64,000 nucleotides of DNA from Candidatus Nomurabacteria bacterium (lineage in GTDB: Bacteria; Patescibacteriota; Minisyncoccia; Phycocordibacterales; UBA918): NCBI GenBank assembly GCA_020632075.1, contig JACKGH010000001.1:537778-601777 (forward strand). Direction: 5' to 3'. Shown in pieces: positions 1-24,423 of this stretch; the stretch's first letter is position 1, and every line of letters begins with the position of its first letter. Position numbers and translations under genes: made by a program. Under the pieces are notes generated by a model. The model made no database searches, was not told the DNA's origin, and was given only the letters and a program-made list of their open reading frames with translations.

Positions 1-239
1 CCCATGACCGATAGTCGGTTCACTCAAAAAGAAGCCTACAAATAAGAGTGAAACGACTGTAACGCTTGCGAGCACCGCGTACGTAGCAGATCGACTGAGA
101 TGTGTGAAATTAGTAATCATAATGCAATTTGTGTCTTGTTAATTTACTTAGTAAGTATAGCAATTAATGGCTCAGAATAATGTTTTATGGTTGTTTTTGT
201 GTGCATAACTCACACCTTATTTCACCGCTTTACATAAGC

Positions 240-3053
240 CTAGATTGCGCCACCACCGCCTGCGCCACCACCAGTCGACTGGTGGTAGACCCGGACCTGG
301 ATCGCGTCGATCTGTACCGTATTACTTGAAGGCTGACCAATAACCCGAACCGCGAAGTTTGCATTATTGAACTCAGCATACGTCCAGCTGCGGCCCCAAG
401 TATCGCTTGCACCTCCAAGAGTAACTACCGCATCCGTCCCGGTGAGGGTTGGGGTAGTTTTAGCGCTTGTCCAGTTACTTCCGCCGTCGTAAGAAAGCTC
501 AACATCAATATCACCCGCAGCAGTCGTACCCGAAATTTCCATTTTCACTTCGATACCTGTAATAGTATTACCACTTGGCACACTGAAACCGTGGCCGGTG
601 TAGCTTGATGAAGCGTTTGTCGTGTCAGTAGACGCATAGGTACCGTCAACCTTATCGTACGCATACGCCCCATTAGTCCAATCGCCACTATGTGCAGTTG
701 GCCAGAAGTAATTCGGATCATCCCCGATCAGTTCCCCACCTTCATTGGTGCCACCAGTTTCTTCGGAACGACCTTCTGGAGCAGGATCGCCGATCGCCGC
801 AGCACTACCACCACCGCCCTTGTTGATCCGGTGATGTTGTGCCTGATTGACCGATCCACTCACCGTATATGAACCCACATAATCTTCCATCGAAACACCC
901 GACGTGAATAATTCAAAGTTTAGCGATGAACCACTATCCGGCACACTCCAGTCAGCAACTACGATGTAGTTGTCAGTGGTGGTTGCAAGCCAGTCTGTAC
1001 TGAACGTGATACCACCCGAGAAACCTGAGATGCTCATTACACCAGCACCACCAACTTGCTCATCTGTCGCATCATACACACCATCATTATCGTGGTCTTT
1101 GAGGAGTCTGATATTAGAGAAATCAGCAGTGTCTATCTTCTTGGCTCCAGACAGTGTCACCACCAGCTCAGTCACCGTGGCTGTACCACTTTCTGGCGTA
1201 AGTTTGAAGGCGAATAGCGCTTCATCGGTCTTGCTTTGGAAATCAAATGCATTTTCAACCTGGGTTGCATCATGGTCTGCGATCGTGGTCGAACCATACT
1301 CGGCATTGAAATTCCAATTGCTGTTGTTGCCTCCATCAATTGAGTTGAAAGCAGGGATCGGTCCGTATGTACTCGATGACGCATTAGAATCGGACGCAGT
1401 CACAAACTCAACCGTCATTGGGATCGACTGCACATCGAGGTACCACTGCGTATCAGCCTCGGTCGAAGCCAGCCAAACATGAGAATCTTCTGCACCCTGC
1501 CACACGACAGTATTGAAGGTACTGGTCGCGCCAGCAAGGAACTGTGCTGAAGTAGACGCAGCCATGGTGAAAGTGCCAGTGGTAGTTACTGGAGCACCGA
1601 AGACGATCGACTGAGTAGCGCCAGTGCCACTAGTGTTGTAGACAGTCAGATCGTTGAAGGCACTCGCGCCAGAGAGCGTGCCGGTGGCAGTCTGCTGACT
1701 ACTACCACTGAGAAGTACTTCTGAAGTAGAAGCGGTGAATATACCGTTGTTCGTGTAGTCACCGTCGATATCAAGTGTGGTACCAGATGCATGTACGATC
1801 GCACCGGAAAGAATAGAGAAGTCAGTCGTGGAAGCACTAGTCTGGAAGACCTGCACATTATCGGCGACAATCACATCGCCAAAGGCTGATATGCCGATCA
1901 TGGCACCAGAATGCGTAGCCGGGAGATGATATTCATGCACAGCATCACTACCATCACCGGTTATGTACATACGCGAACCATCTGTCGAAAACGCAAACCC
2001 ATACGCATAGGTCTCTTCGGTTGAAAACGAAAACGTATCAACATGAACTGCGGTAGCAACGCTCCACGGGGTGGTAAGAGTAAACTCGTCTACATCATCA
2101 CCATTGTTCCCCGCAACAAACATCTTGTGTCCGTCATTAGAGAAAGCTAATCCTGCAGGAGCTAACTGGTACGAAAATACATTGTAGAGAGTCGCGTAGT
2201 TTGCTGTGGACACGTCAAAAGCAGTGTCAAGTATATATTCATACACTTTCCTGGTGTTGTATCCCATCACAAACATCTTGAGACCATCACTAGAGAACGT
2301 AACATCTGTTGGTTGTGAATCTTGAGCTGACACAGACTTACTGTCGACAAAGCTGGCGTTGGAGACGTCAAAGGCAGCATCAAGCGTATACTCATTGATG
2401 TCATTACCAGTATCCCCTGCCACAAACAACTTCATACCATCATCAGAGAACGTAAGACCAGTTGGGGCGGTGTCTTGCGCAGAGACTGACTTGCTCGCTA
2501 CGAAACTCGCAGTCGAAATGTCCCAGGCAGTGCTGAGTGAGTAGGTGTTGATCTCTTGGCCAACATAGTCAACAGAAAATAGTTTGAGTCCATCGTCAGA
2601 AAACGCGAGACCAAATGAAAGCGAGGCTTGGGCCGCTACACTTGTTGCGTGTACATAACTCGCACTACTAATATCGAAATAGTCTGCACCAGTGAAGTAG
2701 GTTGTGCCGGAGTTATTATCGAAAGTGCCACTGTTGGTGTACACCCCATCAATGGTGAGAAGGCCAGCAGCGGGCGCCGTGAAGCTGCCCCCGCTAGCGA
2801 TGGTAAGGTCTGAGGTTGTTGCATTGTTTGAGGCGGTGTACGAACCAGTCACTACCACATCGCTGAGCTGATCGTCTCCGACTAGGGTTCCTGAGATCGT
2901 TTTGCTTGAACCAGTAAGATAGATTGTTCCGCTATTATTATCAAAATCCCCCCCCACTATTAGTAAGGTCACCAGCAACAGTGAGCAATGTAGGAGCAGT
3001 GACTGTCGCTGTGCCACTACCGATCGTGAAGTCGGTGGTCGAAGCGTTGTCAC
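240..3053 (-). CDS. C-terminal portion (937-aa ORF) of a giant beta-propeller-repeat surface protein; continues the reading frame of 2941..9435 across a G8 frameshift; Gly-rich C-terminus
   Basis: Same 45-50-aa repeat family (S.A.DVS.ASFV.SKSVSAQD..P.G..FS.DG.KMFV.G...Y.L) as the upstream ORF. The 5' end overlaps the 3' end of 2941..9435 in another frame at a C8/G8 tract. Motif ...TNSGG|DFDNNSGT... is restored by removing one G. Confidence 0.6.
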   Translation of the reverse strand: MTTLRPPTSRSVVAQRQSLLLHCSLLLVTLLIVGGDFDNNSGTIYLTGSSKTISGTLVGDDQLSDVVVTGSYTASNNATTSDLTIASGGSFTAPAAGLLTIDGVYTNSGTFDNNSGTTYFTGADYFDISSASYVHATSVAAQASLSFGLAFSDDGLKLFSVDYVGQEINTYSLSTAWDISTASFVASKSVSAQDTAPTGLTFSDDGMKLFVAGDTGNDINEYTLDAAFDVSNASFVDSKSVSAQDSQPTDVTFSSDGLKMFVMGYNTRKVYEYILDTAFDVSTANYATLYNVFSYQLAPAGLAFSNDGHKMFVAGNNGDDVDEFTLTTPWSVATAVHVDTFSFSTEETYAYGFAFSTDGSRMYITGDGSDAVHEYHLPATHSGAMIGISAFGDVIVADNVQVFQTSASTTDFSILSGAIVHASGTTLDIDGDYTNNGIFTASTSEVLLSGSSQQTATGTLSGASAFNDLTVYNTSGTGATQSIVFGAPVTTTGTFTMAASTSAQFLAGATSTFNTVVWQGAEDSHVWLASTEADTQWYLDVQSIPMTVEFVTASDSNASSSTYGPIPAFNSIDGGNNSNWNFNAEYGSTTIADHDATQVENAFDFQSKTDEALFAFKLTPESGTATVTELVVTLSGAKKIDTADFSNIRLLKDHDNDGVYDATDEQVGGAGVMSISGFSGGITFSTDWLATTTDNYIVVADWSVPDSGSSLNFELFTSGVSMEDYVGSYTVSGSVNQAQHHRINKGGGGSAAAIGDPAPEGRSEETGGTNEGGELIGDDPNYFWPTAHSGDWTNGAYAYDKVDGTYASTDTTNASSSYTGHGFSVPSGNTITGIEVKMEISGTTAAGDIDVELSYDGGSNWTSAKTTPTLTGTDAVVTLGGASDTWGRSWTYAEFNNANFAVRVIGQPSSNTVQIDAIQVRVYHQSTGGGAGGGGAI

Positions 3054-6000
3054 TGAAGGTGAGTGGTAGTGTACCTGCAGTTACCAGATCATTAAAGGCC
3101 GAGCCACCGGTCATAGTACCAGAAAACGTCTGCTCCTCCTCAGTAATAACATATTCGTAGATACTATCATTGACGCTACCGGTCATGTACATTTTGGTCC
3201 CTGTGGTGTTGAAGGCTAAGCCATATCCAAAAAGATCTTCAGTACTTATATCTTTACTACTAACGAATGCGGCCGTTGAAATATCGAACGCTGAGGAGAG
3301 GTCGTACTCGTAGACTTTGTTATTGCTACTACCGATCACATACATTCTAGTGCCGGTGGTGTTGAAGGCTAAATCTCTTGGAACAGTATCTTGTGCGGCG
3401 ACGCTCGTAGCGTGGAGATAGGAAGCAGTTGAAATATCGAACGCAGAGGAGAGGTCGTACTCGTAGACTTTGTCGTTTGAAGAACCAACGACGTACATTT
3501 TAGTGCCGGTGGTGTTGATGGTGACACCTACTGGAGTACTGTCCTGTGCGGCGACGCTCGTAGCGTGGAGGTAGGAAGCAGTTGAAATATCGAACGCAGA
3601 GGAGAGGTCGTACTCGTAGACTTTGTTATTACTATCACCAACCATGTACATTTTAGTGCCGGTGGTGTTGATGGTGACACCTACTGGAGTACCGTCCTGT
3701 GCGGCGACGCTCGTAGCGTGGAGATAGGAAGCAGTTGAAATATCGAACGCAGAGGAGAGGTCGTACTCGTAGACTTTGTCGTTTGAAGAACCAACGACGT
3801 ACATTTTAGTGCCGGTGGTGTTGAAAGCAACGTCATATGGAGAAATGTCCTGTGCGGCGACGCTCGTAGCGTGGAGGTAGGAGGCGATAGAGATATCAAA
3901 ACCATTGTTTTCAACAATCACCACACCAGCATTGTGCGAAAAAGTTCCGGCATTGCTGTACGAACCAGTGATAGTTAGTGCATCAGTAGCCGTAAGAGCA
4001 CCGCCAGAAGTGATCGTAAGATCAGACGTGGTCGCATTATCAAGCAACGAATACGAGCCCGTGATGACCACCTCATCAAACCGACTGGAACTTGTAAGTG
4101 TGCCGGAGATCGTTTTGCCACTCCCCGTGAAGACACTGGTCACATCAATTCCCTTTGTACCTGTATTATTGTAATTCCCCGCCACCCGTAGGTTACTACC
4201 CCCAGCTCCGGTGTAAGTGCCAGAGTTGGAAAAATCTCCCCCTACTCGCAAGCTACTACTAGCCGCTGCGGTGTAAGTGCCAGAGTTGGTATACGCACCA
4301 GCGATGTCTGTCACACTGTCAGCACTTACGGTGAAGTCTCCTTCATTGATGTAGTCTCCCGCCACAGAGAGCGTACTGGTTGGAGCAATTACTATCGCAC
4401 TAGCAGTGATGGTCAAATCGGAGGTAGAAGCATTGGCAACATCAAAAGTTTGTTTTGTTTGATCAAACACCACGCTCCCAAACACTGAAGAACCCGTCAT
4501 AGTACCCTGATGAACTGCGTTGAGTTCGATTGTCAGGATACGATCAAATGCACTGTAGTTGGTAAAAAGTATGGAACTATCATAGGTAAGCCACGCCCCA
4601 TAACCAGCAAAAGCACTAGAATAAAGCACTTGCTCTTGATAGTTTGCAGTTGATACATCAAATGGAACCTGTAGTGTGTACTGATGAATTTCTCCCACAT
4701 CTCCCCGCACATACATGTAGTCGCCATTAACTGAGAAAAACAGACCGTCTGTTGAAGTGACTTCTGTCGCAACACTGTAGTTATCGACATAGGTAGCAGT
4801 AGACACATCCCAGGCGGTTCCGAGCAAGTACTCATTGACGTCATCACCATCATCGCCAAGTATGAAAAGTTTTGTGCCGTTGCGTGATAATCGAAAGCCG
4901 GTTGGAGTGGCATCTTGGGTCGTCACTGTAAAGTTGTCAGTGTAACTAGCAGTAGACACATCATAAGCAGTACTCAATGAATACTCATTGACTGCTTCAG
5001 GTTTAGAATTCGAACTTCCCCCAAGCACATACATAGTACGACCATCATCTGAAAATTGTACATCAATCGGATCATCTGTTTGAGTCGCTACACTAAGCCC
5101 GTCCACATACGTCTTTGTTGCCACAACCCAGGCGGTTCCAAGTGTATACTCATAGACTTTGTCATTTGTACTACCCGTCGTAAACATCTTAAGACCGTCA
5201 GGAGAGAAGGTGAGACCTTTTAAAGTGGTATCTTCAGTTTGAGAAGATAATCCAATGGATCTGTAACTAGAAAACCGCTGATTACCATACCCATTAAGGT
5301 ACACTGTGCCGGAGTTATTAGTGAATGTACCATTGTTTGTGTACTCCCCAGTAATGGTAAGTAAGCTTGGCGCAACAAAACTGCCACCCGAAGCAATAGT
5401 CAGATGACTTGTCGAAGCATTGTTCGACGCTGTATACGAACCAAACACCTCGACACTTCCGAGAGCGGAGCCGCCAGTCAGAGTACCCGAGAGGGTTTTG
5501 CTTGTGCCGGTCAATTCTACGACCCCATAATTATGGTCGAAGTCTCCCCCGCTGTTGGTGAAGTTTCCAGCTACCGTGAGTACAACCGGCGCTGTGACTG
5601 TTGCTGCACCGCTACTGATCGTGAAGTCGGTGGTAGAAGCATTATCAGCAAAGTAAGTACTTTGCTCACCGCTGATCACCACATCTCCCAGTGATGAAGT
5701 AGCGATGAGCGTGCCGCTGATCGTCTGTACATCACGCAAACTGTATTGATCGACGCCGTTGAAATCCAGGGTGTAAAACTCGTCTCCTGAAGTAGAGAAC
5801 GCAATGTCTCGAAAAGCATTGAGCGAGACCGTTGGAGTGAAGGTCTGTAGATAGGTCGCTGATGAAATGTCATAGAGCGTACTTAGGTAGTACACAAAGA
5901 CCTGTTCACTATCAAACCCAGCCACATACAAGTATCGCCCGCTCGTAGAGACTACGGCGGCGTTTGGATTTGTATCAAAGTTACCCATGTACAGCGAAGC

Positions 6001-9000
6001 ATTATCATAACCAGCAGTAGAGACGTCCCATGGTGTACTGAGTGTATAAGAATAGATCGTGTTGTTGGTGCCACCGACTACATACATCTTGGTGCCACCT
6101 GAAGAAAAACTCACTCCCTGTGGCCCAGTGTCTTGAGAACTTACACTGGTCGCGTGGGTATAGGCTGCAGTAGAGACATCCCACGCGGTTGAGAGTGTGT
6201 ATTCATAGACACTATTGTTGTCATTTCCGGCTACAAACATTGTAGAACCATCACTCGAGAACGCTACACCCATTGGAGTACCGTCTTGGGACTGCACACT
6301 GGTCGCGTGAGTGTAGGCTGCAGTAGAGACATCCCACGCGGTTGAGAGCGCGTATTCATAGACCTTATCTGTAGTAACTCCTGTGATGTACATATTCGTG
6401 CCGTCAGTTGAGAACGCAAGACCTCGCTGGGCAGAATCCTCATCAGTAGACGATGAGTTTGTATAAGAAGCAGTGGTCAGGTCAAAACCAATACCAGCCG
6501 CGTACAGTGTGCCTCCGTCCGCATCGAAGGTTCCATTCTGTGTCAGATCACCAGTGACCGTGAGAGAATTTGATACCGAAAGGACTGTCCCCTCTGTAAC
6601 GTCTACTTCTGAGGTAGAGGCATTGGCTGGAAATTCTATAGTCTGAACACCGGCCGTCACAAGCTTACCAAGTGATGAAGCACCGGTAAGCGTACCAGTG
6701 AAGGCAGAGCTGGTACTGAAGTCATACTCGTAGACTCGGCCACCCACCTGCGTCGACACGATATACATCTTGTCGAGATCGGCTGAAAAGTTTATGTCAC
6801 GCGGCTCAGTAACCACCGTCCCAACACTGAAAGTGTCAGCAAGCACAGCGGTCGAGACATCCCACGCGGTTGAGAGTGTATATTCGTAGACACTATCATT
6901 CTCATAACCTGACACAAACATCTTGTAGCCATCTCTCGCAAACACAAGACCATGCGGAAATTCGTCTTGTGTCTCAACCAGCTTACTGTCAATAAAGCTA
7001 GCAGTTGAAACATCCCATGGGGTCGAGAGTGTGTACTCATTAACATCATCCCCCCAGTCACCGATCACGAACATCTTGGATCCGTCCGTTGAGAATTGCA
7101 CACTATGCCCATCGCTCTCCTGTGCAGCAACACTGGTCGCGTGCACATAACTAGCAGTCGAGACGTCCCAGGCGGAAGACAAATTGTACTCATGCACTGA
7201 GTCATTCTGTGTACCATTGATGTACATCTTGGTGCCGTCTGGTTTGAAAAAGAGACCAGTTGGCGTATTTTCATACGCCTGCACACTGGTAGCATGAACA
7301 TAGCTGGCTGTTGAAGCGTCCCAAGCAGGTGATAGCGTGTACTGAACCACCTGATCGTTTGTTGAACCAACCACATACATCTTGGTGCCATCAGTCGAAA
7401 AAGCGACCTCTCGTGGACTTGATTCTTGTGTTGTGACTGTCTTGTAGTCCACATAGGCTGCATGCATCAACCCCGCGGTCGTCGTACCACCGTTGTGCGT
7501 AAACACACCGCTATTATTATGAAAATCACCCGTGAGATTCAAATATGCTGGACTTAAGAATGTGTCTCCGCTCCAGATATGTAGTTCCTGTGCTTCCAAG
7601 ATCTTTATCTCGTCGGTCGCAACTGACGCAGTGAATTGTAGATCACTATCATCGGTTGAGTCGTAGTTTGCAAACTCGGTCACACTGGTTGAAGTGCTCC
7701 CCTCTTGGCGCACGATGACTCGATCCTGGTATAGATCGAGGCCTGAAATATGACTCGAAGTCGACGTGGCTTTGGTTACCACCGCCGCTCGAATACTCGA
7801 AGACGCATCAACAAAGACCGTCAACGGCACATCCATACCAAGCAGATATTGATCAACTGCAAAGCTGTACACCCCAGAACCATTAGCAGTCGTGGTAGTA
7901 GCCACTGGTGATCCAGCCCCAACCACTAACTTAATGGTCGCGCCAGTACCAATAACTGTTGACCCTTCATCAGAATACAAAGTCCCCGAAACGGTAGTGG
8001 TAGCATTCTCTTCATACAAACTATCAAGCCTAAGTCCTGAAAACGCTCCATGATCGACATCCATGGTACCAGTGGTAGCCAAGGCAATGTTTTCAACGGA
8101 CACATTGTCGGTTGCACTCATACCTGGCACAAACGCACCATGAGCATGACCCGCATTGTAACTCCATGTATCATTGCGGTTGAATTCATCAGAGCCGGCG
8201 TAATCAATGATCGTGTCATTGACACTAAGTCGAGCAGTCGGATTACCACGTGACACAGCTGCAGCTTCAGATTGCTGTGACCAGAAAAAGATGTAGTCTC
8301 CCGCTACGTCGACTTCTGTAAACGAGTCGGTGGCACTATTGATAGTGAAGGTCGATGCGTCTTCATGAGCTGTGGTGTCCCAAGAAAATTCAGTCAACGT
8401 AGTTGTGTTTTGATCGCCTGAAGTCGCCTCACGAATGAACGTCTCCGCAGCGCTTGGTAATTGAACGATCTCTAACGACCCGCCCTGGAATGTAGCCGTC
8501 AAACCAGCACGCTGAAGGTTCTCAATAGCGAGCACTTCCCCTGCACCAACATCGATGATACCGATGTAGTTAAGAACACCATCTTCAGCCTCTTGTGCAG
8601 TTCGCATCATCGTGGACACTCGCGTCCCCTCTACTTCCACATCATCCAAAGTGATCCGAGAAGTGTACTCCGTTCGATCTGCAGTAGTTCCAGCACCATC
8701 AGCAAACATTGGTAATGAATAGGAAACGAGATACCTGCCAGCATTTGCAATGGTAATATTTGCACCACTTCTTGAGAATCCTGTATCCTCTTCGTTGGTC
8801 GTATCCCACGCCACATCAGCGTGTGTGGTGGAAGCAGAGTTCGCACTCACAGCACCCGAGAGAGCGTACCGTGCGTAGTTCCAAGCATCAGGAAGCTTAA
8901 TGACCTGTACACCATTCCAGCCGGCATTCTCTCGGGTTGGAATACCTGTACTATCGTTGTCTGTTTTGTAGAAGTTCGTTTCAAGTGAGGTGGTCGCACT

Positions 9001-9435
9001 TGCAACATTAATGATCGCGTTACCCGATGTCATACACTCCTGCTGCCCGTTCAGCTTTCTCATATAACATTGTGAGGCACCAGAGGTAGCTGTCACTCCC
9101 CCAATATCGAGCCGACCTTGAATTTCCTTTCTGGTGTTGTCAGTAGCATCAGTTGTTTCCCAGAGCTGCGTATACAACACCAAGTACTTTCCCGTTTCTA
9201 GTTCGAACTTACTTCCACTGTACGTGATCGCTGTTCCCGAAGCATGTGTCTCACTGTTCCAGCCAAAGATCGCTTCACTGGTCGATACTGCGGTGGTATC
9301 GGTAGTGTTTTCACGCACCATGTACTCGAGCATGGTGGCGTGCACTTGAGCCGGGACCGCAAGCACAGCAAACACAAAGAACACTATGAACAGTGACTGA
9401 ATTACTTTTACTTGTGTGATCAATGCGGTCTTCAT
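2941..9435 (-). CDS. Giant secreted repeat protein (2164-aa ORF, N-terminal part of a ~3064-aa protein); signal peptide plus tandem YVTN/NHL-like beta-propeller blade repeats and right-handed-helix-like T/S/G-rich spacer repeats
   Basis: N-terminal MKTALITQVKVIQSLFIVFFVFAVLAVPAQVHA is signal-peptide-like. More than 20 copies of ~50-aa units (FDISTASYLHATSVAAQD.TPVGV..N.TGTKMYVVGSSNDKVYEYDLSSA). The stop lies immediately after a G8 tract. Confidence 0.65.
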   Translation of the reverse strand: MKTALITQVKVIQSLFIVFFVFAVLAVPAQVHATMLEYMVRENTTDTTAVSTSEAIFGWNSETHASGTAITYSGSKFELETGKYLVLYTQLWETTDATDNTRKEIQGRLDIGGVTATSGASQCYMRKLNGQQECMTSGNAIINVASATTSLETNFYKTDNDSTGIPTRENAGWNGVQVIKLPDAWNYARYALSGAVSANSASTTHADVAWDTTNEEDTGFSRSGANITIANAGRYLVSYSLPMFADGAGTTADRTEYTSRITLDDVEVEGTRVSTMMRTAQEAEDGVLNYIGIIDVGAGEVLAIENLQRAGLTATFQGGSLEIVQLPSAAETFIREATSGDQNTTTLTEFSWDTTAHEDASTFTINSATDSFTEVDVAGDYIFFWSQQSEAAAVSRGNPTARLSVNDTIIDYAGSDEFNRNDTWSYNAGHAHGAFVPGMSATDNVSVENIALATTGTMDVDHGAFSGLRLDSLYEENATTTVSGTLYSDEGSTVIGTGATIKLVVGAGSPVATTTTANGSGVYSFAVDQYLLGMDVPLTVFVDASSSIRAAVVTKATSTSSHISGLDLYQDRVIVRQEGSTSTSVTEFANYDSTDDSDLQFTASVATDEIKILEAQELHIWSGDTFLSPAYLNLTGDFHNNSGVFTHNGGTTTAGLMHAAYVDYKTVTTQESSPREVAFSTDGTKMYVVGSTNDQVVQYTLSPAWDASTASYVHATSVQAYENTPTGLFFKPDGTKMYINGTQNDSVHEYNLSSAWDVSTASYVHATSVAAQESDGHSVQFSTDGSKMFVIGDWGDDVNEYTLSTPWDVSTASFIDSKLVETQDEFPHGLVFARDGYKMFVSGYENDSVYEYTLSTAWDVSTAVLADTFSVGTVVTEPRDINFSADLDKMYIVSTQVGGRVYEYDFSTSSAFTGTLTGASSLGKLVTAGVQTIEFPANASTSEVDVTEGTVLSVSNSLTVTGDLTQNGTFDADGGTLYAAGIGFDLTTASYTNSSSTDEDSAQRGLAFSTDGTNMYITGVTTDKVYEYALSTAWDVSTAAYTHATSVQSQDGTPMGVAFSSDGSTMFVAGNDNNSVYEYTLSTAWDVSTAAYTHATSVSSQDTGPQGVSFSSGGTKMYVVGGTNNTIYSYTLSTPWDVSTAGYDNASLYMGNFDTNPNAAVVSTSGRYLYVAGFDSEQVFVYYLSTLYDISSATYLQTFTPTVSLNAFRDIAFSTSGDEFYTLDFNGVDQYSLRDVQTISGTLIATSSLGDVVISGEQSTYFADNASTTDFTISSGAATVTAPVVLTVAGNFTNSGGDFDHNYGVVELTGTSKTLSGTLTGGSALGSVEVFGSYTASNNASTSHLTIASGGSFVAPSLLTITGEYTNNGTFTNNSGTVYLNGYGNQRFSSYRSIGLSSQTEDTTLKGLTFSPDGLKMFTTGSTNDKVYEYTLGTAWVVATKTYVDGLSVATQTDDPIDVQFSDDGRTMYVLGGSSNSKPEAVNEYSLSTAYDVSTASYTDNFTVTTQDATPTGFRLSRNGTKLFILGDDGDDVNEYLLGTAWDVSTATYVDNYSVATEVTSTDGLFFSVNGDYMYVRGDVGEIHQYTLQVPFDVSTANYQEQVLYSSAFAGYGAWLTYDSSILFTNYSAFDRILTIELNAVHQGTMTGSSVFGSVVFDQTKQTFDVANASTSDLTITASAIVIAPTSTLSVAGDYINEGDFTVSADSVTDIAGAYTNSGTYTAAASSSLRVGGDFSNSGTYTGAGGSNLRVAGNYNNTGTKGIDVTSVFTGSGKTISGTLTSSSRFDEVVITGSYSLLDNATTSDLTITSGGALTATDALTITGSYSNAGTFSHNAGVVIVENNGFDISIASYLHATSVAAQDISPYDVAFNTTGTKMYVVGSSNDKVYEYDLSSAFDISTASYLHATSVAAQDGTPVGVTINTTGTKMYMVGDSNNKVYEYDLSSAFDISTASYLHATSVAAQDSTPVGVTINTTGTKMYVVGSSNDKVYEYDLSSAFDISTASYLHATSVAAQDTVPRDLAFNTTGTRMYVIGSSNNKVYEYDLSSAFDISTAAFVSSKDISTEDLFGYGLAFNTTGTKMYMTGSVNDSIYEYVITEEEQTFSGTMTGGSAFNDLVTAGTLPLTFSDNASTTDFTIGSGTATVTAPTLLTVAGDLTNSGGGF
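2948..2955 (-). repeat. Homopolymeric G8 (C8 on + strand) tract at the junction of the two giant-protein ORFs
   Basis: Sequence tcaaaatCCCCCCCCactattag. Frame 1 stops 2 codons after it; frame 2 continues the same repeat motif. Confidence 0.9.
3150..3910 (-). repeat. Near-identical tandem 150-bp (50-aa) coding repeats inside the giant protein gene
   Basis: The string ggaagcagttgaaatatcgaacgcagaggagaggtcgtactcgtagactttgt recurs at ~3421, 3571 and 3721, with diverged copies at ~3270 and ~3870. They encode FDISTASYLHATSVAAQD...KVYEYDLSSA units. Confidence 0.8.
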
Positions 9436-9437
9436 GG

Positions 9438-12400
9438 CTACGTTGTTGGTTCTGGAGCTGAATCTACTGGACTTGCCGGTTCCTCAGCTGGTGGTTCCGG
9501 GGTTGGTTCTGGGTCTTCGGCCGGCAATTCAGACTCTTCACTCTCCTCTTCTACTATTGGCTCGACCGGCGGCTCTTCTGGCATTTCTTCGATCGTCGGT
9601 TCAGTCGTAGGTTCTTCTACTGTCTCCGGGGAACTCGTTGCAGCGTCTTGTTCTTCTGTAGTATCTGGAACGGTTTCGTTTGTACTACTTGCGGTTTGAT
9701 CAGTCGAACTGGCGGTGTCATCAGGCTCAGTACCAGCATTTCCCCCCTGAGTCTGTCCACCCGAGGTGTTGCTGTCAGTATTGGTGCTGCCACCAGCTGA
9801 GCCAGTGTTGTTAGTGCTGCTTGTATCAGTTGTTGCAGCCTGCACATCGAGCAAGAGGCGGAGATCATCCGCAGTCACACACACACCGTCGACACAGAGT
9901 TCATTAGCGATCTCAACGCGATCTGCCTTAAGCGTGAAGACTGAGAGCACGCCATCCACGAAGCGATTTGCGAGAGCAACCAAACGGTCGAAGATAGTTT
10001 CATCCTCATTATCACCGACCACTTCAATGCTGCTAGTGCCCATAAGCGCCTGGATACCAGCAAGCTGAGCATCATCAACCCAACGGAAACCACGATCGAC
10101 AAACATTACGATCTGACCAACCTTCACCTCAGTATTTCGATCAAGATCGATCGTTTCACTTTCAGTCTCGCGAAGTGCTTGGAGTGCTTCAGCGACAGAT
10201 TCACGCTCAATGATGTCATTAGCTTCTTCGATGCGTCCTTCTGTCGTGGTGGCGTTTAGTGGTACACACGGGTCCTCACCAAGCGCTGAGCCACCACCGA
10301 AGTAACAACCATCATCAATACGTGGATCGTATTCAGTGAAGATAGGCTCGAACACTGGATCGATCATGTCATCGCCAAACTGATTGATGTATGTCTCACT
10401 GTACATACGCTCATCATCGAAGTCTTCAAGTGCGATACCGATAGTCGCTCCAGTGCCAGTTGCCTTCATTGCAATACCTGGCAGGCTTGAGAGCATAAGC
10501 TGATCACCCTTCTTGATCGGTCCGTTTTCAGTCGAAAGCTTTACTGGCACACGTCCAGTAAGCGCAACTGGATACCGCGTCTCTCCTTCAGTGAGTGACA
10601 CATCGTCGGCACCGAGGGTGATACCCGGCTTAGTAGAAACCACACCGAGGATCGGTAGAACGCTATCTCGATTGGCTCGTTCGATCGAGAGTTCACCAGC
10701 GAGCGTTACCACCTCACCCGTCTCGAGCGCAGCGCTTGAGAAGTATGTTTCTGCCAAGTCAGAGTTGCCGGTATCGTAATCACGTGCTGAGATCTTACCG
10801 CTTGTAGATGCAGTACACTCACCATCGTAATCGACACAGATACCACCAAATGGGATCTGGAGACCAGCCAAGTTTGCAGTCGAGCCATCGTTACGACCGA
10901 TCGTCGTGGTACCGAATGCAGACACCGTGAATACAGGGTTGTTTGCGTTTCGGAAATCAAGATACTTTGAGGTCGACGATGAGAATGAGCCACCCGTACC
11001 ATTACCGAAGTTCATCTCAAGACCAGTACCTTCGAAATCACTCGAGCTCTGGAAGAGACTCAAAAGCGTAGCGGTCGTGATCGTGTCTGAGTAGCCGCGA
11101 ATCGCGTTACCTTGAGTAGTACCTTCTGTTTCGAAGTACCCACCCGCTGGCTCGTAGGTTGCTCCCGCATCGCCAGTTGTTACACCGCGTACACCAAAGG
11201 TACGAGCGAAGCCTGAAAGTGCGGTGTTTTCACCGTACGTATTGATACCGCGGTGTGCCTGCACTTCAAGACCACGCACAGTATTTGCGTAGTCTGTACT
11301 ATCTTGTACCCGGATCATACTACCAACGAGTGTGGTGGTCGCGGTATTTGAAGCTGTAAGGTAAAAGCGGTTACCATACTGCACCGCATCTTCAACAGAG
11401 TTAGTAGTCTGCAAGTACTGATCGAATCCGATCACTCCTGCACCATCAAAGTCGGTGCTTTCAAGAGTAAGCTTCGCGCTTGGAGTGGTGCTACCAATAC
11501 TGACCGAAGTACTGCCAATACCTCCCTGACCATCAGCGCGACCAAAGACAGTAAGAAGTGGCGTACCGTCAAGACTTGCCGAGTAGCTCATGACCGTACC
11601 GGTTGCAGACGCAGTCGTGACTCCCATGTCAGTCCACGAGACGATTCCCGCATCATCCGCAAACGTCATGTTACCCAGTGCGAGATTCTCAATCGTGGTC
11701 TGGTTGGTCGCACTATCATATGAGATCGCACCATTAGCGACTTCGAAGTCACCGGTGAGAGCGATCTTTGGATAGGTACCATCAGTATCGATACGGAAGA
11801 TCGGTGAGGCTGATGATGAGGTAGCGATGGTGAACGCAAACGCAGTACTGTCTTTAATAGTACTGGTAGCGTTGGTGAAGTACTGGAGAAGAAGGTCACT
11901 CGCTGAAGAAGAAGCGAATGAGATCACGTTTGAATCAAGCCAGGTGTCACCAGCGACTGAGAGTTTAGCGCTTGGGGATGAGGTACCGATGCCAACGAAT
12001 CCACTATTGTCGACCGTGAGTACTCGCCCACTCGCGTTATCGAGCGTGAGGATGTCACCAGTACCGAGCTGAGTGATCGAGGTGCTCGTAGCAGAGGTTG
12101 AGCCGGTGATGCTGAAGAGGTTGTATGCACGTTCGTCGTCGGTGGTGATGGTAGTGCGGTCCCATTCGTTGTAGCGGGTGTCGGTACCTGCATCACTGAC
12201 GTAGGTGGTGGTGTCGGGGTTGATGTAGGTATTGCCCACAATGACGGTGTGTTCGGAGTTTACCGTCTCGATCTCGATCAATGCAGCGGTACCGGTGGCC
12301 CTAATACTGTTACCAGAAATGAGAACGTCATCTGGCGCAACACCGCCAATATCATCAAGAAAGATGCTGGCATTTCCGCCACCACCATTCGCAATAAGGA

Positions 12401-15400
12401 CATTACCAGACACAAGAGTACGATCACTCGACCAAGAAACCCGAATACCATACACACTATTGGTGGCGATTTGGTTACCAATAATACTGTTGTCTGTTGC
12501 CCCCTGCCCCGTCACGATACCTTCAGGGTTCCCGGCAACGGTGTTGTCTGAAATAATGTTTCGACTCGCGTTTAGACCAATTTCAATACCGTAACTACCA
12601 TTACCATAAACCTGGTTGTTGGAGACGTGGTTTTCGACACTTGCTGTTCCCAAATACAAACCATGCCCGCTACCACTATTCATCTGGTTGCTGGTAATAA
12701 TGTTGTTGTTTGAGTTTGAGTTAACAAGAACGTTGTAACTACTATTACTATTGACTTGATTGCCCACAACCATGTTGTCCGAACTCTCGTCTAAGTAAAC
12801 ACCGTACACACTATCCTCAACCAAGTTCCCTTGCACAACGTTTTCATTTGAGCTAGTGAGCAACCCGATACCAATCCCAGCCGCGTCATCACTATTAATG
12901 AAACTGTTCGCAACAGTGTTGTTTGAACTTGAGACGAGATAAATACCCAAGTTTTCATTACCACCGGCAGTGACCTGCTCCACAGTATTACCGTTGGCAT
13001 ACGACAAGTACACACCAGCATTTTGAAAATCATTTGCGATGACATGCGCAATCGAAGACGAGCTGGTATTACTAAACCAGATACCATACTGATCATCACT
13101 GGCGGTGTTATTACTTAGATTACCTTCAAGGTGCAGACCAGCCACGCGCACGTGATTGCTCGACGTTGCCAGAATCATAGCGACCGTGTTGGCGGTATTC
13201 GCATCAAGTGTGAGAACTGTGCTGCTTCCCTGTCCAATCAGACTGGTAGAGGAAGCCAAGGTGATCACGCTGGTGGCGTAGGTGGTCGTACCGACCGCGT
13301 AATTTCCCGCGAGCAGCCGGACTTCGCCGCCGCCGTTACCAGCAACGTAATCAATCGCTGCCTGAATGGTCGCTTCATCAGCGGTCCCATCCGCCGTATA
13401 GTCTGCATACGCTTTCTCATTCGCTGGACTGTCTGCAGCAGCGACGACTACGGCGGTGTCACCGGCTGATTTGATACATGAGCCAGAAGCATCTTGGAAA
13501 CAACCACCCTCAAGCTTGATGCCGTTGGCGAAGGTTGAGGTGGCAGTGGTGGTTGAGACATAAAGGATGTTCTCGATGGTGGTGGTTGCACTGGTGAGGG
13601 TGAGGAGACCGTTGGTGCCCACTGTAGAACCAGTACCGATCTTGAAGGTGTCGTCGGTGTCGTCGAGGCCGAGGTAGAAGTCGACTGCAGAACCATCAAA
13701 CAGTGCAGCCAGATCTTCAGCCAGACCTGTTCCAAATGTAATAGTAGAACCAGTCCCTCCGGTTGAACTGATACTCAAGTCTCCACTCGCATTCACACTA
13801 AGCTCACTGTAATTAGACCCATCATACGAAAGTCGCAGTGCGTTTGAGGTACCAAAGATATCAAGCATTGCTCCTGGTGAAGCTGTACCAAGTCCAAGGT
13901 TGGTTCCGTCATACACAAAGGTTGAATCAAAGGCCAGGGCTGAACCAGAGACGTATGGGATAGCGTTGGTGGTATATGAACCTGGAGTATCAGAAAGACC
14001 AAGGAAGGTACCATTACCTAAGCCAAGGCTTGAGGTAGCAATGTCTGCCCAGGCTGAACCATTCCAATATAAGAGGTCACCGTAGTTTTCGGTCATTGCG
14101 GCGACATCAGAGAGGTCTTCGAGGGCGGAGGCGCCGGCTGAGAAACCAAGGGTGGTGGTTGAGACCCAGTCGAAGCCACCAGCTGCGGTGCTTGAAGCTT
14201 GAAGGACATAGCCATTGACCCAGTTGGAAGCAGCCAGGCTTGAAGAAGCAACGGTGGTAGTTGAGAGGACTCCGTTAGCATCGGCGGTGAGGAGGCCGCT
14301 GGTGAGACCACTCACAGTGAGAGTGCCGTCGTTACCAACCGTGAAAACGCGACCAGTCGCGTTGTCTAGAGTAAGGATGTCACCAGTACCGAGCTGAGTG
14401 ATCGAGGTACTCGTAGCTGAGGTTGAGCCGGTGATGCTGAAGAGGTCGTGTGTGCGGGTGGTTGGCGTTGTGAGTGTGCGGCGATCAAACTGATCGAACA
14501 TCGTTCCGGTACCTAAGTCACGGACAGACAGTGCTCCAGTGCCTGAGTGTGTATTATTTGCAATAACGTTATCGTTTGCGGTCGAAGATTGGATATCAAT
14601 CGCTCGTCCAGTCCCGGCCGCACTCACGATCCGGTTACCGGTGATGAGGTTTCGATCAGAGTTACTGCTGACGATAACTCCCGTTCCGGTCGCACCTCCA
14701 TTATTGTTGTTTATGAAATTGTTACCGCTCACTAAGTTATCAGAACTATTCTCAACGAACACACCTACTGTTGTGTTGTTTTGGAAGGTGTTTCCGGTGA
14801 CGGTGTTGTTACTTGATCCGTTTTCAAAATAAATTCCTCGGTTACTGCTCTCAAAGACGTTACCGGTGACTAGGTTGTAATCACCATTGTAGAAAAGAAC
14901 ACCTTGGTTACCCATGTCACGAAAGATGTTGCCAGTAACAGTGTTGTATCCACCAAGATAAAATGTGATTCCCTCCCAAGAGTTATCATGAATAGTATTA
15001 TTTGCAAAAATGGTGTGATAGACCGTATCAGCATCAATACCGTAGTTGCTGAATCCGGAAATCATGTTGTTCGTAATCTGGTTTCCTCGGGTACTAGTAT
15101 AGAGGCGGATACCGGAACCTCGTCCATCTTTAATCGATAGACCAGTGATCGTCGAACTTGCTGTGCCAGCAAAGTGAATACCGTGCTGGGTACCAGTAGT
15201 CTGCCCGGTTTTATTCAAGTCGAGCGTCATATCACGCACTGTGATATCTGTCACACCAGTTGCGTAGAACATGTAGTAGGTCGCATTGAAACTGTTCCTG
15301 AGCTGCAAAACAGTGCTCTTGCCAGAACCAACCAATGCTACTGAGGATGTTGCAAAATTAATACCACGATTCGAAAAACTGGTTGTACCAAGAGTGAATG

Positions 15401-16769: not shown

Positions 16770-17506
16770 TTACGAACATTAACCGGCACTTCTATCAACG
16801 GTACTAACGCACCAACCACTCGACCTGACTCGTCGACCTTTGCTGCTACCTGCGTACCATCGCTCAGCTCGTAGATCTCTACCGTATCTGAAAACAACAT
16901 ATCGACGGTCGCAGAGGCACTACTGGTTCCTTGTGGCATGAGTAAAATACCGTGCGTTGGGTCAGCCGAAAACGAATGCACTGAAGAGGTAGGCACTGCA
17001 ACCACGACAGCTCCCATATCGCTCACTGGACCGTTTGACTGATCAGACACAGTGGTGCGCACAGGTTGTGGAGCCTGAGCAACTTGCGTACTTACTACCG
17101 GAGTCTTGATCAGCCGTGAACTGAGCATGTCATGCTCGTAGACAACGTATCCGCTGAAGAGTCCGACGAGCAAAACGAATGTCGCCACTGAGAGTGAACG
17201 AGCATGCAGTGACTGCACTCGCTTGAGCTGTAGAGTATTCTGCTGTTCCGCTACTGCTCGAAGCTCTCGCTCCCGTTTGCGTTCAAGACGAAGTTGCTTC
17301 TTGCGAATTTCTTGTTCGGCATTAATTGTATCGACATACGACTTGAGAGAGTTTAGATCAACGTACCACTGTCGGCCCACATAAGTGGCAACAATTTTTT
17401 GCTCGCGTGCAAGGCGAGTGATGTAGTCTCGTGAGTATGTGACAAGGTCTGCAATATCCTTGATTGGATACAACTGCTTTCCGTCAATTTCTAATGCACT
17501 GGACAT
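16763..17506 (-). CDS. Membrane-anchored HTH protein: N-terminal excisionase/MerR-type helix-turn-helix, coiled-coil, single TM helix, ~120-aa extracytoplasmic C-terminal domain (ToxR-like topology)
   Basis: IKDIADLVTYSRDYITRLAREQKIVATYVGRQWYV matches the HTH_17 pattern (..GR.W.V). Charged heptad region RKKQLRLERKRERELRAVAEQQ. TM helix SVATFVLLVGLFSGYVVY. Overlaps the start of the giant gene by 7 nt. Confidence 0.55.
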   Translation of the reverse strand: MSSALEIDGKQLYPIKDIADLVTYSRDYITRLAREQKIVATYVGRQWYVDLNSLKSYVDTINAEQEIRKKQLRLERKRERELRAVAEQQNTLQLKRVQSLHARSLSVATFVLLVGLFSGYVVYEHDMLSSRLIKTPVVSTQVAQAPQPVRTTVSDQSNGPVSDMGAVVVAVPTSSVHSFSADPTHGILLMPQGTSSASATVDMLFSDTVEIYELSDGTQVAAKVDESGRVVGALVPLIEVPVNVRKW

Positions 17507-17548
17507 ACCGATTTAACTTTAATTATAAAGTTAAATCGGTATTTTTTC
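17507..17548. promoter_or_regulatory. 14-bp-stem palindrome + T-tract between the two HTH paralogs, 4 nt upstream of the downstream paralog's start codon (candidate operator/attenuator)
   Basis: ccgatttaactttaAttaTaaagttaaatcgg followed by tattttttt. Confidence 0.35.
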
Positions 17549-17585
17549 TGAACTGACTGTGAATAAGTTTTATGTAAAAAATGTA

Positions 17586-18638: not shown

Positions 18639-18667
18639 AACAAGTACATTCTAACAGAGAAAAGCAA

Positions 18668-18692
18668 AATGCACCCCCAGAAGAAGTGCATT
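18668..18692 (-). terminator. Hairpin (7-bp stem aatgcac/gtgcatt) with T-rich tail on the minus strand, downstream of gatB
   Basis: The minus strand reads gtgcatt...aatgcac TTTGCTTTTCTCTGTT. Confidence 0.4.
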
Positions 18693-18716
18693 ACTTATCG
18701 TTTAACCGAGAAAACC

Positions 18717-20126: not shown

Positions 20127-20216
20127 GATAAATGTTATAAAAATTACTCGCTAAAAACGTGAATCATTGTACGACGCAACCCTGCGAGAAACAAGCTGTG
20201 CTAATTCAGCGCACAA

Positions 20217-21185: not shown

Positions 21186-21282
21186 ATGTGTGAGAACACT
21201 ACCTCAGAAATGGATAAATCGCAATAGTATTACGAGTTTGTCTAGGTAACACAGACAAGTTTCGGTATGAACACTAGCGCTT

Positions 21283-21309
21283 AAAAACCACCAGCTAACT
21301 GGTGGTTTT
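21283..21309 (-). terminator. Rho-independent terminator downstream of the DUF360 gene (bidirectional-looking)
   Basis: aaaaa CCACCAG ctaa CTGGTGG tttt. Confidence 0.5.
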
Positions 21310-21331
21310 GCACATGCTATAAGCCTCGAAA

Positions 21332-21709: not shown

Positions 21710-21744
21710 GTCATTATTGTACCTTGGACTACTGTGAATACAAA

Positions 21745-21767
21745 GGGCGGGCCCGAAGGGCCCGCCC
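21745..21767 (-). terminator. GC-rich hairpin terminator downstream of secA
   Basis: GGGCGGGCCC gaa GGGCCCGCCC, followed by TTTGTATT on the minus strand. Confidence 0.5.
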
Positions 21768-21794
21768 GTTGTATTCATCCGCTTCTGACTTACT

Positions 21795-24317: not shown

Positions 24318-24359
24318 AATGGGCGTAGTATAGCGCAATCTGGCTAAATATAAAGCAAA

Positions 24360-24377: not shown

Positions 24378-24423
24378 TATGCAATAAGTCGTACTTGGAG
24401 GCGACGAGTCACCTCCGGTGATA

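What the first reader, a model, noticed from the sequence alone, without database searches (positions are those of the whole stretch)
240..9435. Two giant ORFs are one ~3064-aa surface-protein gene split by a G8 homopolymer: candidate phase-variation switch or assembly error
The 2164-aa ORF (2941..9435) ends ...DLTNSGGGF* two codons after an 8-G run (C8 on the + strand at 2948-2955). The overlapping 937-aa ORF (240..3053) in another frame reads ...LIVGGDFDNNSGTIYLTGSSKTISGTL... across the same tract. Removing one G gives ...TNSGGDFDNNSGTIYLTG..., which reproduces the motif NFTNSGGDFDHNYGVVELTGTSKTLSGTL found earlier in the same protein. The two ORFs are therefore one gene whose frame depends on tract length. 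Homopolymeric G/C tracts of this length are classic slipped-strand phase-variation sites in surface adhesins, but they are also a frequent homopolymer-length error in long-read assemblies. In-frame it would be a ~3064-aa secreted protein; out-of-frame it is a truncated ~2164-aa protein lacking the C-terminal ~900 aa.
Basis: seen in the sequence. Interest (0 to 1): 0.7.

Follow-up and report, generated by a model that had tools for sequence, protein, structure and literature searches.

The report
Giant surface-protein gene split by G8
Two adjacent giant reading frames in a Kaiserbacteria (CPR) genome are one ~3064-residue secreted multi-propeller protein gene broken by one extra G in a run of Gs. 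The extra G appears in two assemblies, so it is probably real, but nothing yet shows it is an evolved on/off switch rather than an ordinary recent frameshift.

Summary
The minus strand carries G8 (C8 at + 2948-2955), the only G/C run of 7 or more in the 64 kb. ORF A (2941..9435, 2164 aa) stops two codons after it, and ORF B continues in the +1 frame. Deleting one G gives one 3064-aa ORF.

Homologues read straight through the equivalent motif (48% identity over 216 aa). Positional orthologues in other Patescibacteria, with the same downstream genes, are single ORFs of 1726, 3182 and 3673 aa. "One gene" is therefore well supported.

An assembly error is unlikely. A separate, fragmented NCBI MAG contig is 100% identical over window 1-3416, G8 included. 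About 15 kb of the window matches other assemblies' contigs without any indel. Pfam coverage gave no sign that any other gene in the window is split.

Phase variation is unproven. Only G8 was seen, and no G7 or G9 copy was found in any searchable collection. The tract is not conserved in orthologues or in the gene's own paralogous motif, and it lies 71% into the gene.

Best reading: a real +1 slippage in a Gly-Gly-Asp-encoded G7 tract. It truncates the protein before its fifth propeller and its conserved C-terminal module. It could revert, but it is not shown to act as a switch.

The parts
2941..9435 (-). ORF A: the 5' 71% of the gene (2164 aa as written). It holds an N-terminal signal-peptide-like segment, N-terminal domains, and four SGL/YncE-like beta-propeller arrays separated by beta-helix-like linker modules.
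   Evidence: PF08450 SGL, E 2e-18; blade and linker motif positions.
9337..9435 (-). Predicted Sec signal peptide or N-terminal anchor (MKTALITQVKVIQSLFIVFFVFAVLAVPAQVHA).
   Evidence: Read from the translation. Homologues P0001 and P0051 have equivalent hydrophobic N-termini. This is by inspection; no predictor was run.
2823..3132 (-). Linker module between propellers 4 and 5 (fused aa ~2102-2204). The G tract lies inside its G-x-[YFL]-x-N-x-G-x-F-x-N-x-G turn motif.
   Evidence: eight copies of the motif in the fused protein; contiguous alignment to P0001 749-955.
2948..2955 (-). G8 homopolymer (C8 on the + strand), the frameshift site. The in-frame state would be G7 = AGT GGG GGG GAT (Ser-Gly-Gly-Asp).
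2941..2943 (-). Premature TGA created by the +1 G (GGA TTT TGA). The UUU-U plus UGA context would allow a +1 ribosomal slip.
   Evidence: the slip is inference only.
240..2948 (-). The 3' 29% of the gene in the +1 frame: 903 codons and the stop, fully open. It encodes the rest of the linker, the fifth propeller (~1920-2822), a last linker and the conserved C-terminal module. NCBI annotates it as a separate 910-aa protein starting at GTG 2972.
243..1295 (-). Conserved C-terminal module (351 aa): two beta-sandwich domains joined by a Gly-rich disordered linker, ending in a poly-Gly ...GGGAGGGGAI tail.
   Evidence: family alignment; AF2 pLDDT 85.9; only generic beta-sandwich matches such as AgI/II C-terminal domain, SGBP-B, cohesin and CBM22.
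3275..3882 (-). Tandem array of four 153-nt units (87% identical) encoding near-identical blades of propeller 4. The short-read MAG contig has an N run here and then ends.
9438..16769 (-). Upstream partner gene: a 2443-aa NosD/right-handed beta-helix giant protein whose stop lies 2 nt before ORF A's ATG. It is context only and not part of the split gene.
   Evidence: A large ORF of at least 1943 aa (not tested for homology to the NosD gene) also immediately precedes the orthologue in L009.

Best explanation
The region holds a single gene for a ~3064-aa secreted, modular protein of a Candidatus Kaiserbacteria (Patescibacteria/CPR) bacterium. The protein has a signal peptide, N-terminal domains, five SGL/YncE-like beta-propeller arrays separated by beta-helix-like linkers, and a conserved C-terminal pair of beta-sandwich domains.

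In the sampled population the gene carries a genuine +1 G insertion, made by replication slippage in a G7 tract that encodes Gly-Gly-Asp (GGG GGG GAT). Translation therefore ends two codons later. The product is a 2164-aa protein that lacks the fifth propeller and the conserved C-terminal module. The 3' 2.7 kb is left untranslated, or translated only at trace level.

The tract arose incidentally from Gly-Gly coding. The frameshift is recent, because the downstream frame is still completely open, and it could revert by slippage. On present evidence it is an ordinary slippage mutation or an early truncation, not a demonstrated evolved switch.

Shown: one gene, the exact switch point, the G8 state in two assemblies, and intact orthologues. 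Inferred: slippage as the cause, the consequences for the protein, the recency, and the surface or adhesive role.
For: - One gene. The fused reading aligns without a break across the junction to P0001 (48% identity over 216 aa, E 3e-43). P0001 and P0051 cover 90-95% of the 969-aa junction-plus-C-terminus query as single proteins.
- Orthologues. Positional orthologues share the downstream gene order (~235 aa, ~350 aa, ~255 aa, ~530 aa, ~342 aa; the 549-aa and 341-aa genes of L007 carry faint fn3 and GAPDH domains). They are single ORFs of 1726 aa (L009), 3182 aa (L019) and 3673 aa (L012). Others in the family reach at least 3695 aa.
- G8 is real. NCBI MAG GCA_020428695.1, contig JAGQMK010000003.1 (18.6 kb), is 100% identical over window 1-3416 and carries G8. 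NCBI annotates the same two pieces, 157 aa partial ending NSGGGF plus 910 aa. The 910-aa product also has a second NCBI accession on a 1,004,653-bp contig.
- Clean assembly. The window matches Logan/ENA contigs from five further runs or assemblies over 14379-24720 with zero gap openings, including 15 homopolymers of 5-7 nt. The other ORFs with Pfam matches have full-length domain coverage.
- Incidental tract. GGG is 14% of Gly codons, and the run-length spectrum predicts ~0.7 G7 tracts per 64 kb. The paralogous motif uses AGC GGG GGA GAC. Homologues have other residues at this site. Orthologues carry in-frame G7-G8 runs at other, non-conserved Gly-rich positions.
- Decay happens in this family. 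The positional orthologue in L023 is broken into at least 11 ORFs while its downstream neighbours are intact.
Against: - No read-level data could be examined, so a minority G7 population cannot be excluded. That is what would distinguish a switch from a fixed mutation.
- The downstream 903 codons are entirely free of stops. This fits a very recent mutation, but it fits a maintained, reversible switch equally well.
- The two assemblies with G8 probably come from the same treatment plant and may share reads or a population, so their independence is not established.
- G7-G8 tracts are long enough to phase-vary in other bacteria, for example the 7C tract of M. tuberculosis glpK (titles and abstracts).
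Confidence: 0.5

Rival explanations
1. The tract is a true contingency locus. The G tract is a selected, reversible slipped-strand switch. G7 (or G10) makes the full 3064-aa protein with its distal propeller and C-terminal binding module. G8 makes a shortened 2164-aa form. The population thereby varies the tip of a giant host-contact protein.
For: - There is a G8 tract inside the ORF whose length sets the frame.
- The downstream frame is fully open for 903 codons and conserved relative to homologues.
- The gene product is a signal-peptide-bearing giant modular protein of an episymbiotic lineage, the kind of gene that phase-varies elsewhere.
- Tracts of 7-8 G/C do phase-vary in other bacteria.
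- The gene family carries G7-G8 runs in several relatives.
Against: - Only G8 was seen, in both assemblies that cover the site. No G7 or G9 copy was found by protein search across the junction or by a variable-gap DNA pattern scan of JGI metagenome contigs.
- The tract is not conserved at this position in orthologues or in the gene's own paralogous motif.
- Runs in relatives sit at different sites and are in frame.
- It is the only such tract in 64 kb, including the neighbouring 2443-aa giant gene.
- The tract lies 71% into the gene, so it truncates the protein rather than switching it off.
Confidence: 0.3
2. The extra G is an assembly or consensus artefact. The true sequence is G7 and the gene is intact. 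The extra G is a homopolymer-length error, for example from long reads, that was propagated or independently repeated.
For: - The window spans repeats that fragment short-read assemblies, and it most likely derives from a 1.0-Mb contig that would need long reads.
- The longest G/C homopolymer is exactly where a residual indel error would sit.
- Sibling MAGs of the second assembly have low coverage (cov ~6.9 in a contig name).
Against: - A separate, fragmented MAG contig carries the same G8 at 100% identity. Its sibling MAGs have short-read assembler contig names (k127_, NODE_).
- There are zero indels between the window and about 15 kb of contigs from other assemblies.
- No other split gene is apparent in the ORFs of the window.
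- The Shatin time-series data that probably underlie the MAG are Illumina HiSeq. The link to this particular MAG was not verified.
Confidence: 0.12
3. The frameshift is recoded at the G8 allele. The 0-frame context GGGGGGGG-A-UUU-UGA-U lets peptidyl-tRNA-Phe slip +1 from UUU to UUU at the stop codon, as in prfB. Alternatively, RNA polymerase slips on the G run. Either route would yield both the 2164-aa and a ~3064-aa (...NSGGGFDNNSG...) product from one allele.
For: - The sequence has the formal elements: a re-pairable UUU_U, an in-frame UGA in the A site, and a G-rich stretch just upstream.
- The shifted product would differ from the G7 product by one residue (D to G). This is inference.
Against: - The arrangement follows automatically from inserting one G before GAT TTT GAT, so it needs no selection.
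- Orthologues are simply in frame.
- SD-like motifs precede only 3 of 39 longest-ORF starts, so SD-stimulated shifting is doubtful here (a crude test).
- There is no evidence of expression.
Confidence: 0.05
4. ORF A and ORF B are two genuinely separate genes, with ORF B independently initiated at GTG 2972 as NCBI annotates it.
For: NCBI's pipeline calls a 910-aa protein from GTG 2972.
Against: - There is no SD-like sequence before GTG 3053, 2972 or 2957, and no signal peptide on ORF B.
- The ORF boundary falls in the middle of a repeated structural motif.
- Homologues and positional orthologues are contiguous.
Confidence: 0.02

Closest known systems
Homopolymeric-tract (slipped-strand) phase-variable genes, e.g. 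poly-G tracts in Campylobacter and Neisseria surface-structure genes, and the 7C tract of M. tuberculosis glpK
   Same: There is a G/C run of 7-8 nt inside an ORF. A one-base change shifts the frame and truncates the product. The affected gene encodes a probable cell-surface protein.
   Different: No tract-length polymorphism has been observed. The tract is not conserved among orthologues. It is single rather than one of many in the sequence available. It sits late in the gene, so it removes a C-terminal portion instead of abolishing the protein. The organism is an uncultured CPR bacterium for which no switching data exist.
Unnamed family of giant Patescibacteria secreted proteins with SGL/YncE-like beta-propeller arrays and a conserved C-terminal double beta-sandwich module (P0001, P0051; loci L009, L012, L016, L017, L019)
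   Same: It has the same module grammar (linker, propeller, linker...) and the same C-terminal 351-aa module (44-71% identity) ending in a poly-Gly tail. For L009, L012 and L019, where neighbouring ORFs were listed, it also has the same genomic position upstream of the ~235 aa, ~350 aa, ~255 aa, ~530 aa, ~342 aa (GAPDH in the window's strain) gene row.
   Different: Here the gene is interrupted by a frameshift. The number of propeller arrays (five) and the length (3064 aa) differ from the relatives, which range from 1411 to at least 3695 aa.
prfB-type programmed +1 ribosomal frameshift
   Same: There is a G-rich element, a short spacer, a P-site codon that can re-pair in +1 (UUU_U), and a UGA in the A site.
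   Different: The site is not conserved. The elements are a by-product of the insertion. The organism shows little SD usage. No evidence of recoding exists.
Frameshifted or decaying giant genes in reduced genomes, e.g. the positional orthologue in L023 (GCA_041389045.1)
   Same: A gene of the same family and position is disrupted while its neighbours are intact.
   Different: L023 has at least 10 disruptions in several frames, which indicates advanced decay or poor assembly. The window has exactly one, at a homopolymer, with an otherwise pristine downstream frame.

Membership tests
SSR/homopolymer phase-variable (contingency) locus | A homopolymeric tract within the ORF whose length determines the reading frame | tested here: met
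   G8 at 2948-2955. G7 or G10 restores a 3064/3065-aa ORF.
SSR/homopolymer phase-variable (contingency) locus | More than one tract length present among cells, samples or closely related strains | tested here: inconclusive
   Only G8 was found, in the window and the NCBI MAG. No other copy of the site turned up in protein searches or in the JGI contig pattern scan.
SSR/homopolymer phase-variable (contingency) locus | The tract is maintained (conserved at the site in orthologues or paralogues) or tracts are over-represented | tested here: not met
   Homologues have NNGMYDHN or NSGDFDAN-type sequences without a tract. The paralogous motif uses GGG GGA GAC. It is the only G/C run of 7 or more in 64 kb, and the spectrum is close to geometric. 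Runs in relatives lie at other sites.
SSR/homopolymer phase-variable (contingency) locus | High-frequency reversible switching with a phenotypic consequence | not testable with these tools
   This needs reads, single-cell data or cultures.
Giant Patescibacteria propeller-array protein family (P0001/P0051/L009/L012/L019 type) | Repeated SGL/YncE-like beta-propeller arrays separated by beta-helix-like linker modules | tested here: met
   PF08450 at E 2e-18. Twenty-two blade motifs fall in five groups, with eight linker turn motifs. There are 1692 homologues.
Giant Patescibacteria propeller-array protein family (P0001/P0051/L009/L012/L019 type) | Conserved C-terminal ~350-aa module ending in a poly-Gly tail | tested here: met
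   63% identity to P0001 and P0051. Forty-three homologues. The AF2 model shows two beta-sandwiches at pLDDT 85.9.
Giant Patescibacteria propeller-array protein family (P0001/P0051/L009/L012/L019 type) | Conserved genomic position (downstream gene row ending in GAPDH, RpiB, Rpe, Tkt) | tested here: met
   L007 extends the window and shows the row with its Pfam domains. ORF rows of matching lengths follow the orthologue in L009, L012 and L019; domains were checked in L007, L023, L024 and L025.
Giant Patescibacteria propeller-array protein family (P0001/P0051/L009/L012/L019 type) | Encoded as one uninterrupted ORF | tested here: not met
   The gene is split at G8 in the window and in the NCBI MAG.
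prfB-type programmed +1 frameshift | A slippery P-site codon re-pairable in +1, followed by an in-frame stop | tested here: met
   GGA UUU UGA U.
prfB-type programmed +1 frameshift | A stimulatory SD-like element in an organism that uses SD pairing, and conservation of the site | tested here: not met
   SD-like motifs lie upstream of only 3 of 39 ORF starts (crude). Orthologues are in frame without such a site.
Homopolymer-length assembly error | Disagreement with an independent assembly, or other indel errors and split genes in the same assembly | tested here: not met
   G8 is identical in GCA_020428695.1. There are 0 gap openings over ~15 kb against seven other contigs. No other split gene is apparent from Pfam coverage.

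The most novel reading that the evidence does not exclude
The G tract is a functioning contingency locus in a CPR episymbiont. By slipping between G7 and G8, the Kaiserbacteria population toggles whether its giant propeller-array protein carries the distal fifth propeller and the conserved double beta-sandwich binding module. This would alter host attachment or evasion. To my knowledge it would be the first simple-sequence-repeat phase variation documented in Patescibacteria; my one targeted literature search listed no paper combining the two topics.
Probability: 0.3. Interest if true: 0.55.

Novelty: new member of a known kind. Interest (0 to 1): 0.3.

Why it matters
If the tract really switches, it would extend slipped-strand phase variation to the ultrasmall, host-dependent CPR bacteria. 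It would also mark this conserved giant protein, and in particular its C-terminal module, as a variable host-interaction determinant, which is a useful lead in a group with almost no functional genetics.

If it is only a recent frameshift, the practical value is in annotation. NCBI currently lists two unrelated "hypothetical proteins" (157 aa partial/2164 aa and 910 aa) that should be one frameshifted 3064-aa gene. The case also shows that giant CPR surface genes can be caught in the act of truncation.

Tried and rejected
1. Exact-product look-ups of ORF A, the upstream 2443-aa gene and the 910-aa ORF B product (V- and M-initiated forms, and P0181) found nothing on record. I therefore could not pull other assemblies' contigs across the junction.

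2. Contigs carrying the identical GatB show the same strain in five Logan runs and one ENA assembly. All of them end in the upstream giant gene's repeats, about 11 kb short of the tract.

3. The variable-gap DNA pattern ACTAATAGT-N(5-12)-ATTTTGATAATAATAG gave one hit in JGI metagenome contigs. It was a chance match in AT-rich, unrelated sequence.

4. The junction-centred protein search found only the G8-type fragment P0121. The C-terminal search found only P0138/P0181 as near-identical.

5. A first AF2 model from a 3-sequence alignment was unusable (pLDDT 43). The 37-sequence model was good, but Foldseek against PDB gave only generic beta-sandwich matches (TM 0.2-0.4), so I make no specific fold or function assignment.

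6. Pfam finds nothing in ORF B.

7. Literature searches did not tie the HKST-UBA MAG to a specific paper. I did not find any report of phase variation in CPR.

8. I considered independent initiation of ORF B and rejected it: no SD, no signal peptide, and the boundary falls inside a structural motif.
Full report
**Observation**

The minus strand of the window reads ...GGT GAC CTT ACT AAT AGT GGG GGG GGA TTT TGA. This places a G8 run at C8, + 2948-2955, with a TGA two codons later.
- ORF A is 2941..9435(-), 2164 aa, and ends ...DLTNSGGGF*.
- ORF B is 240..3053(-), 937 aa, and overlaps ORF A in the +1 frame. It reads ...LIVGGDFDNNSGTIYLTGSSKTISGTL.
- Deleting one G gives a single 3064-aa ORF reading ...DLTNSGGDFDNNSGTIYLTG. 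Adding two Gs gives 3065 aa.
- The paralogous motif NFTNSGGDFDHNYGVVELTGTSKTLSGTL exists at aa 1290.

The run is the only G/C homopolymer of 7 or more in 64 kb. The C-run spectrum is 4:94, 5:22, 6:3, 7:0, 8:1. A G7 tract is therefore about what chance provides (~0.7 expected per 64 kb). The non-chance element is that the frame switch between two homologous reading frames falls exactly on the longest run.

**Is it one gene?**

Yes, on four lines of evidence.
- A 969-aa query made of the junction plus everything downstream finds proteins that cover 90-95% of it as single chains: P0001 (1670 aa) and P0051 (1522 aa).
- BLASTP of a 232-aa junction-centred segment against P0001 aligns without a break across the tract position (48% identity over 216 aa, E 3e-43).
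- The tract lies inside one of eight copies of a G-x-[YFL]-x-N-x-G-x-F-x-N-x-G turn motif in the linker modules that separate the propeller arrays.
- A scan of GTDB species-representative genomes with the conserved C-terminal module returned 14 Patescibacteria loci. Where the contig is long enough, the gene carrying this module is a single ORF: 1726 aa (L009), 3182 aa (L019), 3673 aa (L012), at least 3695 aa (L016), 2161 aa (L017) and 1411 aa (L014).

L009, L012 and L019 are positional orthologues. They are followed by ORFs of about 235, 350, 255, 530 and 342 aa, matching the row that follows the window's gene in L007. In L007 the last two of these carry faint fn3 and GAPDH domains and are followed by RpiB, Rpe and transketolase. 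ORF B has no signal peptide and no SD-like sequence before any candidate start. "Two separate genes" is therefore rejected.

**What the protein is**

- Its N-terminus looks like a Sec signal peptide (MKTALITQVKVIQSLFIVFFVFAVLAVPAQVHA; by inspection).
- It has weak but significant SGL/YncE-type beta-propeller matches (PF08450, E 2e-18).
- It has 22 recognisable blade motifs in five groups.
- Its C-terminal 351-aa module is shared at 44-71% identity with at least 36 other proteins.
- An AlphaFold2 model of that module, built from a 37-sequence alignment, is confident (pLDDT 85.9). It shows two beta-sandwich domains joined by a disordered Gly-rich linker.
- Foldseek against the PDB returns only generic beta-sandwich relatives at low TM-scores: streptococcal AgI/II C-terminal domains, Bacteroides SGBP-B, cohesins and CBM22. 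A binding role is plausible but not established.

The organism is a Candidatus Kaiserbacteria (CPR) bacterium. This follows from the NCBI names of P0121 and P0181. The gene sits directly downstream of a 2443-aa NosD/beta-helix giant gene.

**Is the extra G an assembly error?**

Several results argue against it.
- NCBI MAG GCA_020428695.1, contig JAGQMK010000003.1 (18.6 kb), is 100% identical to window 1-3416 and carries G8. It has an N run and ends inside the 153-nt blade repeats. NCBI annotates the same two pieces.
- Sibling MAGs of that series have MEGAHIT- or SPAdes-style contig names.
- A Shatin activated-sludge time series was sequenced on Illumina HiSeq and assembled with CLC (with scaffolding) and MEGAHIT. 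I could not verify that this MAG comes from that study.
- The 910-aa product has a second NCBI accession on a 1,004,653-bp contig, which is probably the window's source.
- Contigs from five Logan runs and one ENA assembly match window 14379-24720 at 99.88-100% with no gap openings, across 15 homopolymers of 5-7 nt. L008 matches 455-1534 perfectly.
- Among the other 37 ORFs of at least 150 aa that I scanned, those with Pfam matches show full-length domain coverage, for example SecA, GatB, Obg, GDP-mannose dehydratase and CofD.

I put an artefact at about 12%. The residual doubt is that the two G8 assemblies may share reads or a population.

**Is it a phase-variation switch?**

The physical prerequisite is present. 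G/C tracts of 7-8 nt do phase-vary in other bacteria. However, every test I could run for an evolved switch was negative or uninformative.
- Only G8 was seen. No other copy of the site could be retrieved: the junction protein search found only the G8 fragment, and the JGI pattern scan gave one chance hit.
- The tract is absent at the equivalent site of homologues.
- The paralogous motif in the same gene is encoded AGC GGG GGA GAC.
- G7-G8 runs in orthologues lie at other Gly-rich positions and are in frame.
- There is no second tract in the 64 kb, including the neighbouring giant gene.
- The tract is 71% of the way into the gene, so it truncates the protein rather than silencing it.
- The positional orthologue in L023 is broken into at least 11 ORFs in several frames while its neighbours are intact. 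Members of this family can therefore simply decay.

On the other side, the 903 codons downstream of the tract are completely open. That fits a maintained switch as well as a very recent mutation.

**Mechanism preferred**

A Gly-Gly-Asp stretch happened to be encoded GGG GGG GAT, which is a G7 tract. Replication slippage added one G. Translation of the dominant allele now stops at GGA TTT TGA. The result is a secreted 2164-aa protein with four propeller arrays but without the fifth array and the conserved double beta-sandwich module. The allele can revert by slippage. Whether that is exploited is unknown.

A side possibility is that the new context, G-run-A-UUU-UGA-U, formally resembles the prfB +1 frameshift cassette. 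It could let a small fraction of ribosomes read through as ...NSGGGFDNNSG.... However, the elements are an automatic by-product of the insertion, and the organism shows little SD usage (3 of 39 starts).

**Verdict**

Of its two proposed causes, the artefact is unlikely and phase variation is unproven.

Probabilities:
- Incidental real frameshift: about 0.5
- Evolved switch: about 0.3
- Artefact: about 0.12
- Recoding: about 0.05
- Two separate genes: about 0.02

Read-level tract-length counts in the named SRA runs would settle it. Interest is modest at 0.3. It is a known kind of event in a little-studied lineage, and it would become notable only if switching is demonstrated.

Noticed in passing
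window 3275-3882: There is a tandem array of four 153-nt units (87% identical) encoding near-identical blades of propeller 4. It looks like recent intragenic duplication or gene conversion. The short-read MAG contig has a 185-N run exactly matching the window's length here (L007 149-333 = window 3417-3601) and then ends at window 3749.
   Followed up: partly
window 25938-56742 (low-GC core ~32000-44000): This is a large cell-surface glycan cluster. It holds many GT1/GT4 glycosyltransferases, FkbM and other methyltransferases, GDP-mannose 4,6-dehydratase, a flippase-like Polysacc_synt protein and a Wzy-type O-antigen ligase fused to TPRs. GC drops to 0.38-0.42 against ~0.49 elsewhere, which suggests a horizontally exchanged or variable island.
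   Followed up: partly
window 240-280 (C-terminus of the gene); P0001, P0051, P0146, P0165; L010:1400-1450: The family ends in a conserved ...VRVYHQxxGGGGxGGGG(A)I* poly-glycine tail directly after the last beta-sandwich. It could be a sorting or anchoring signal of unknown type.
   Followed up: no
L023 1-11400 (GCA_041389045.1, JAWKSQ010000001.1): The positional orthologue of the giant gene in this Paceibacterota MAG is broken into at least 11 ORFs with homologous pieces in frames 1, 3, 1 and 2. The ~10 kb of downstream genes look intact. This is either a decayed pseudogene or a locally poor assembly.
   Followed up: partly
L016:10490, L012:6630, L010:1438: In-frame G7-G8 runs occur in orthologous giant genes at other, non-conserved Gly-rich positions: the KGGGGGGS linker, an SRGGF blade and the AGGGGAI tail. 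Three of the four G/C runs of 7 or more across the 14 related loci lie in the giant genes.
   Followed up: partly
L024 1258-2952 and L025 113-1852: In two relatives the C-terminal module is encoded by a much shorter ORF (564 and 579 aa) that lacks propeller arrays. In L024 an opposite-strand gene lies just upstream. These may be short stand-alone versions or remnants of the giant gene.
   Followed up: no
window 56746-62037: A VirD4/TrwB-like coupling ATPase (791 aa) sits next to a lamin-tail-domain plus PKD protein (462 aa) and a protein fusing a YkuD L,D-transpeptidase to a Peptidase_S11 D-Ala-D-Ala carboxypeptidase (501 aa).
   Followed up: no
window, upstream of the 39 longest-ORF starts: SD-like motifs (GGAG, GAGG, AGGA, GGGG) occur upstream of only 3 of 39 ORF starts. 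This suggests the organism makes little use of Shine-Dalgarno initiation. The test is crude because start codons were not curated.
   Followed up: partly
L008 (JAGQNT010000151.1, 1080 bp): A 1080-bp contig binned into a 'Candidatus Saccharibacteria' MAG (HKST-UBA75) is 100% identical to window 455-1534. It is probably a mis-binned fragment of this Kaiserbacteria gene.
   Followed up: yes
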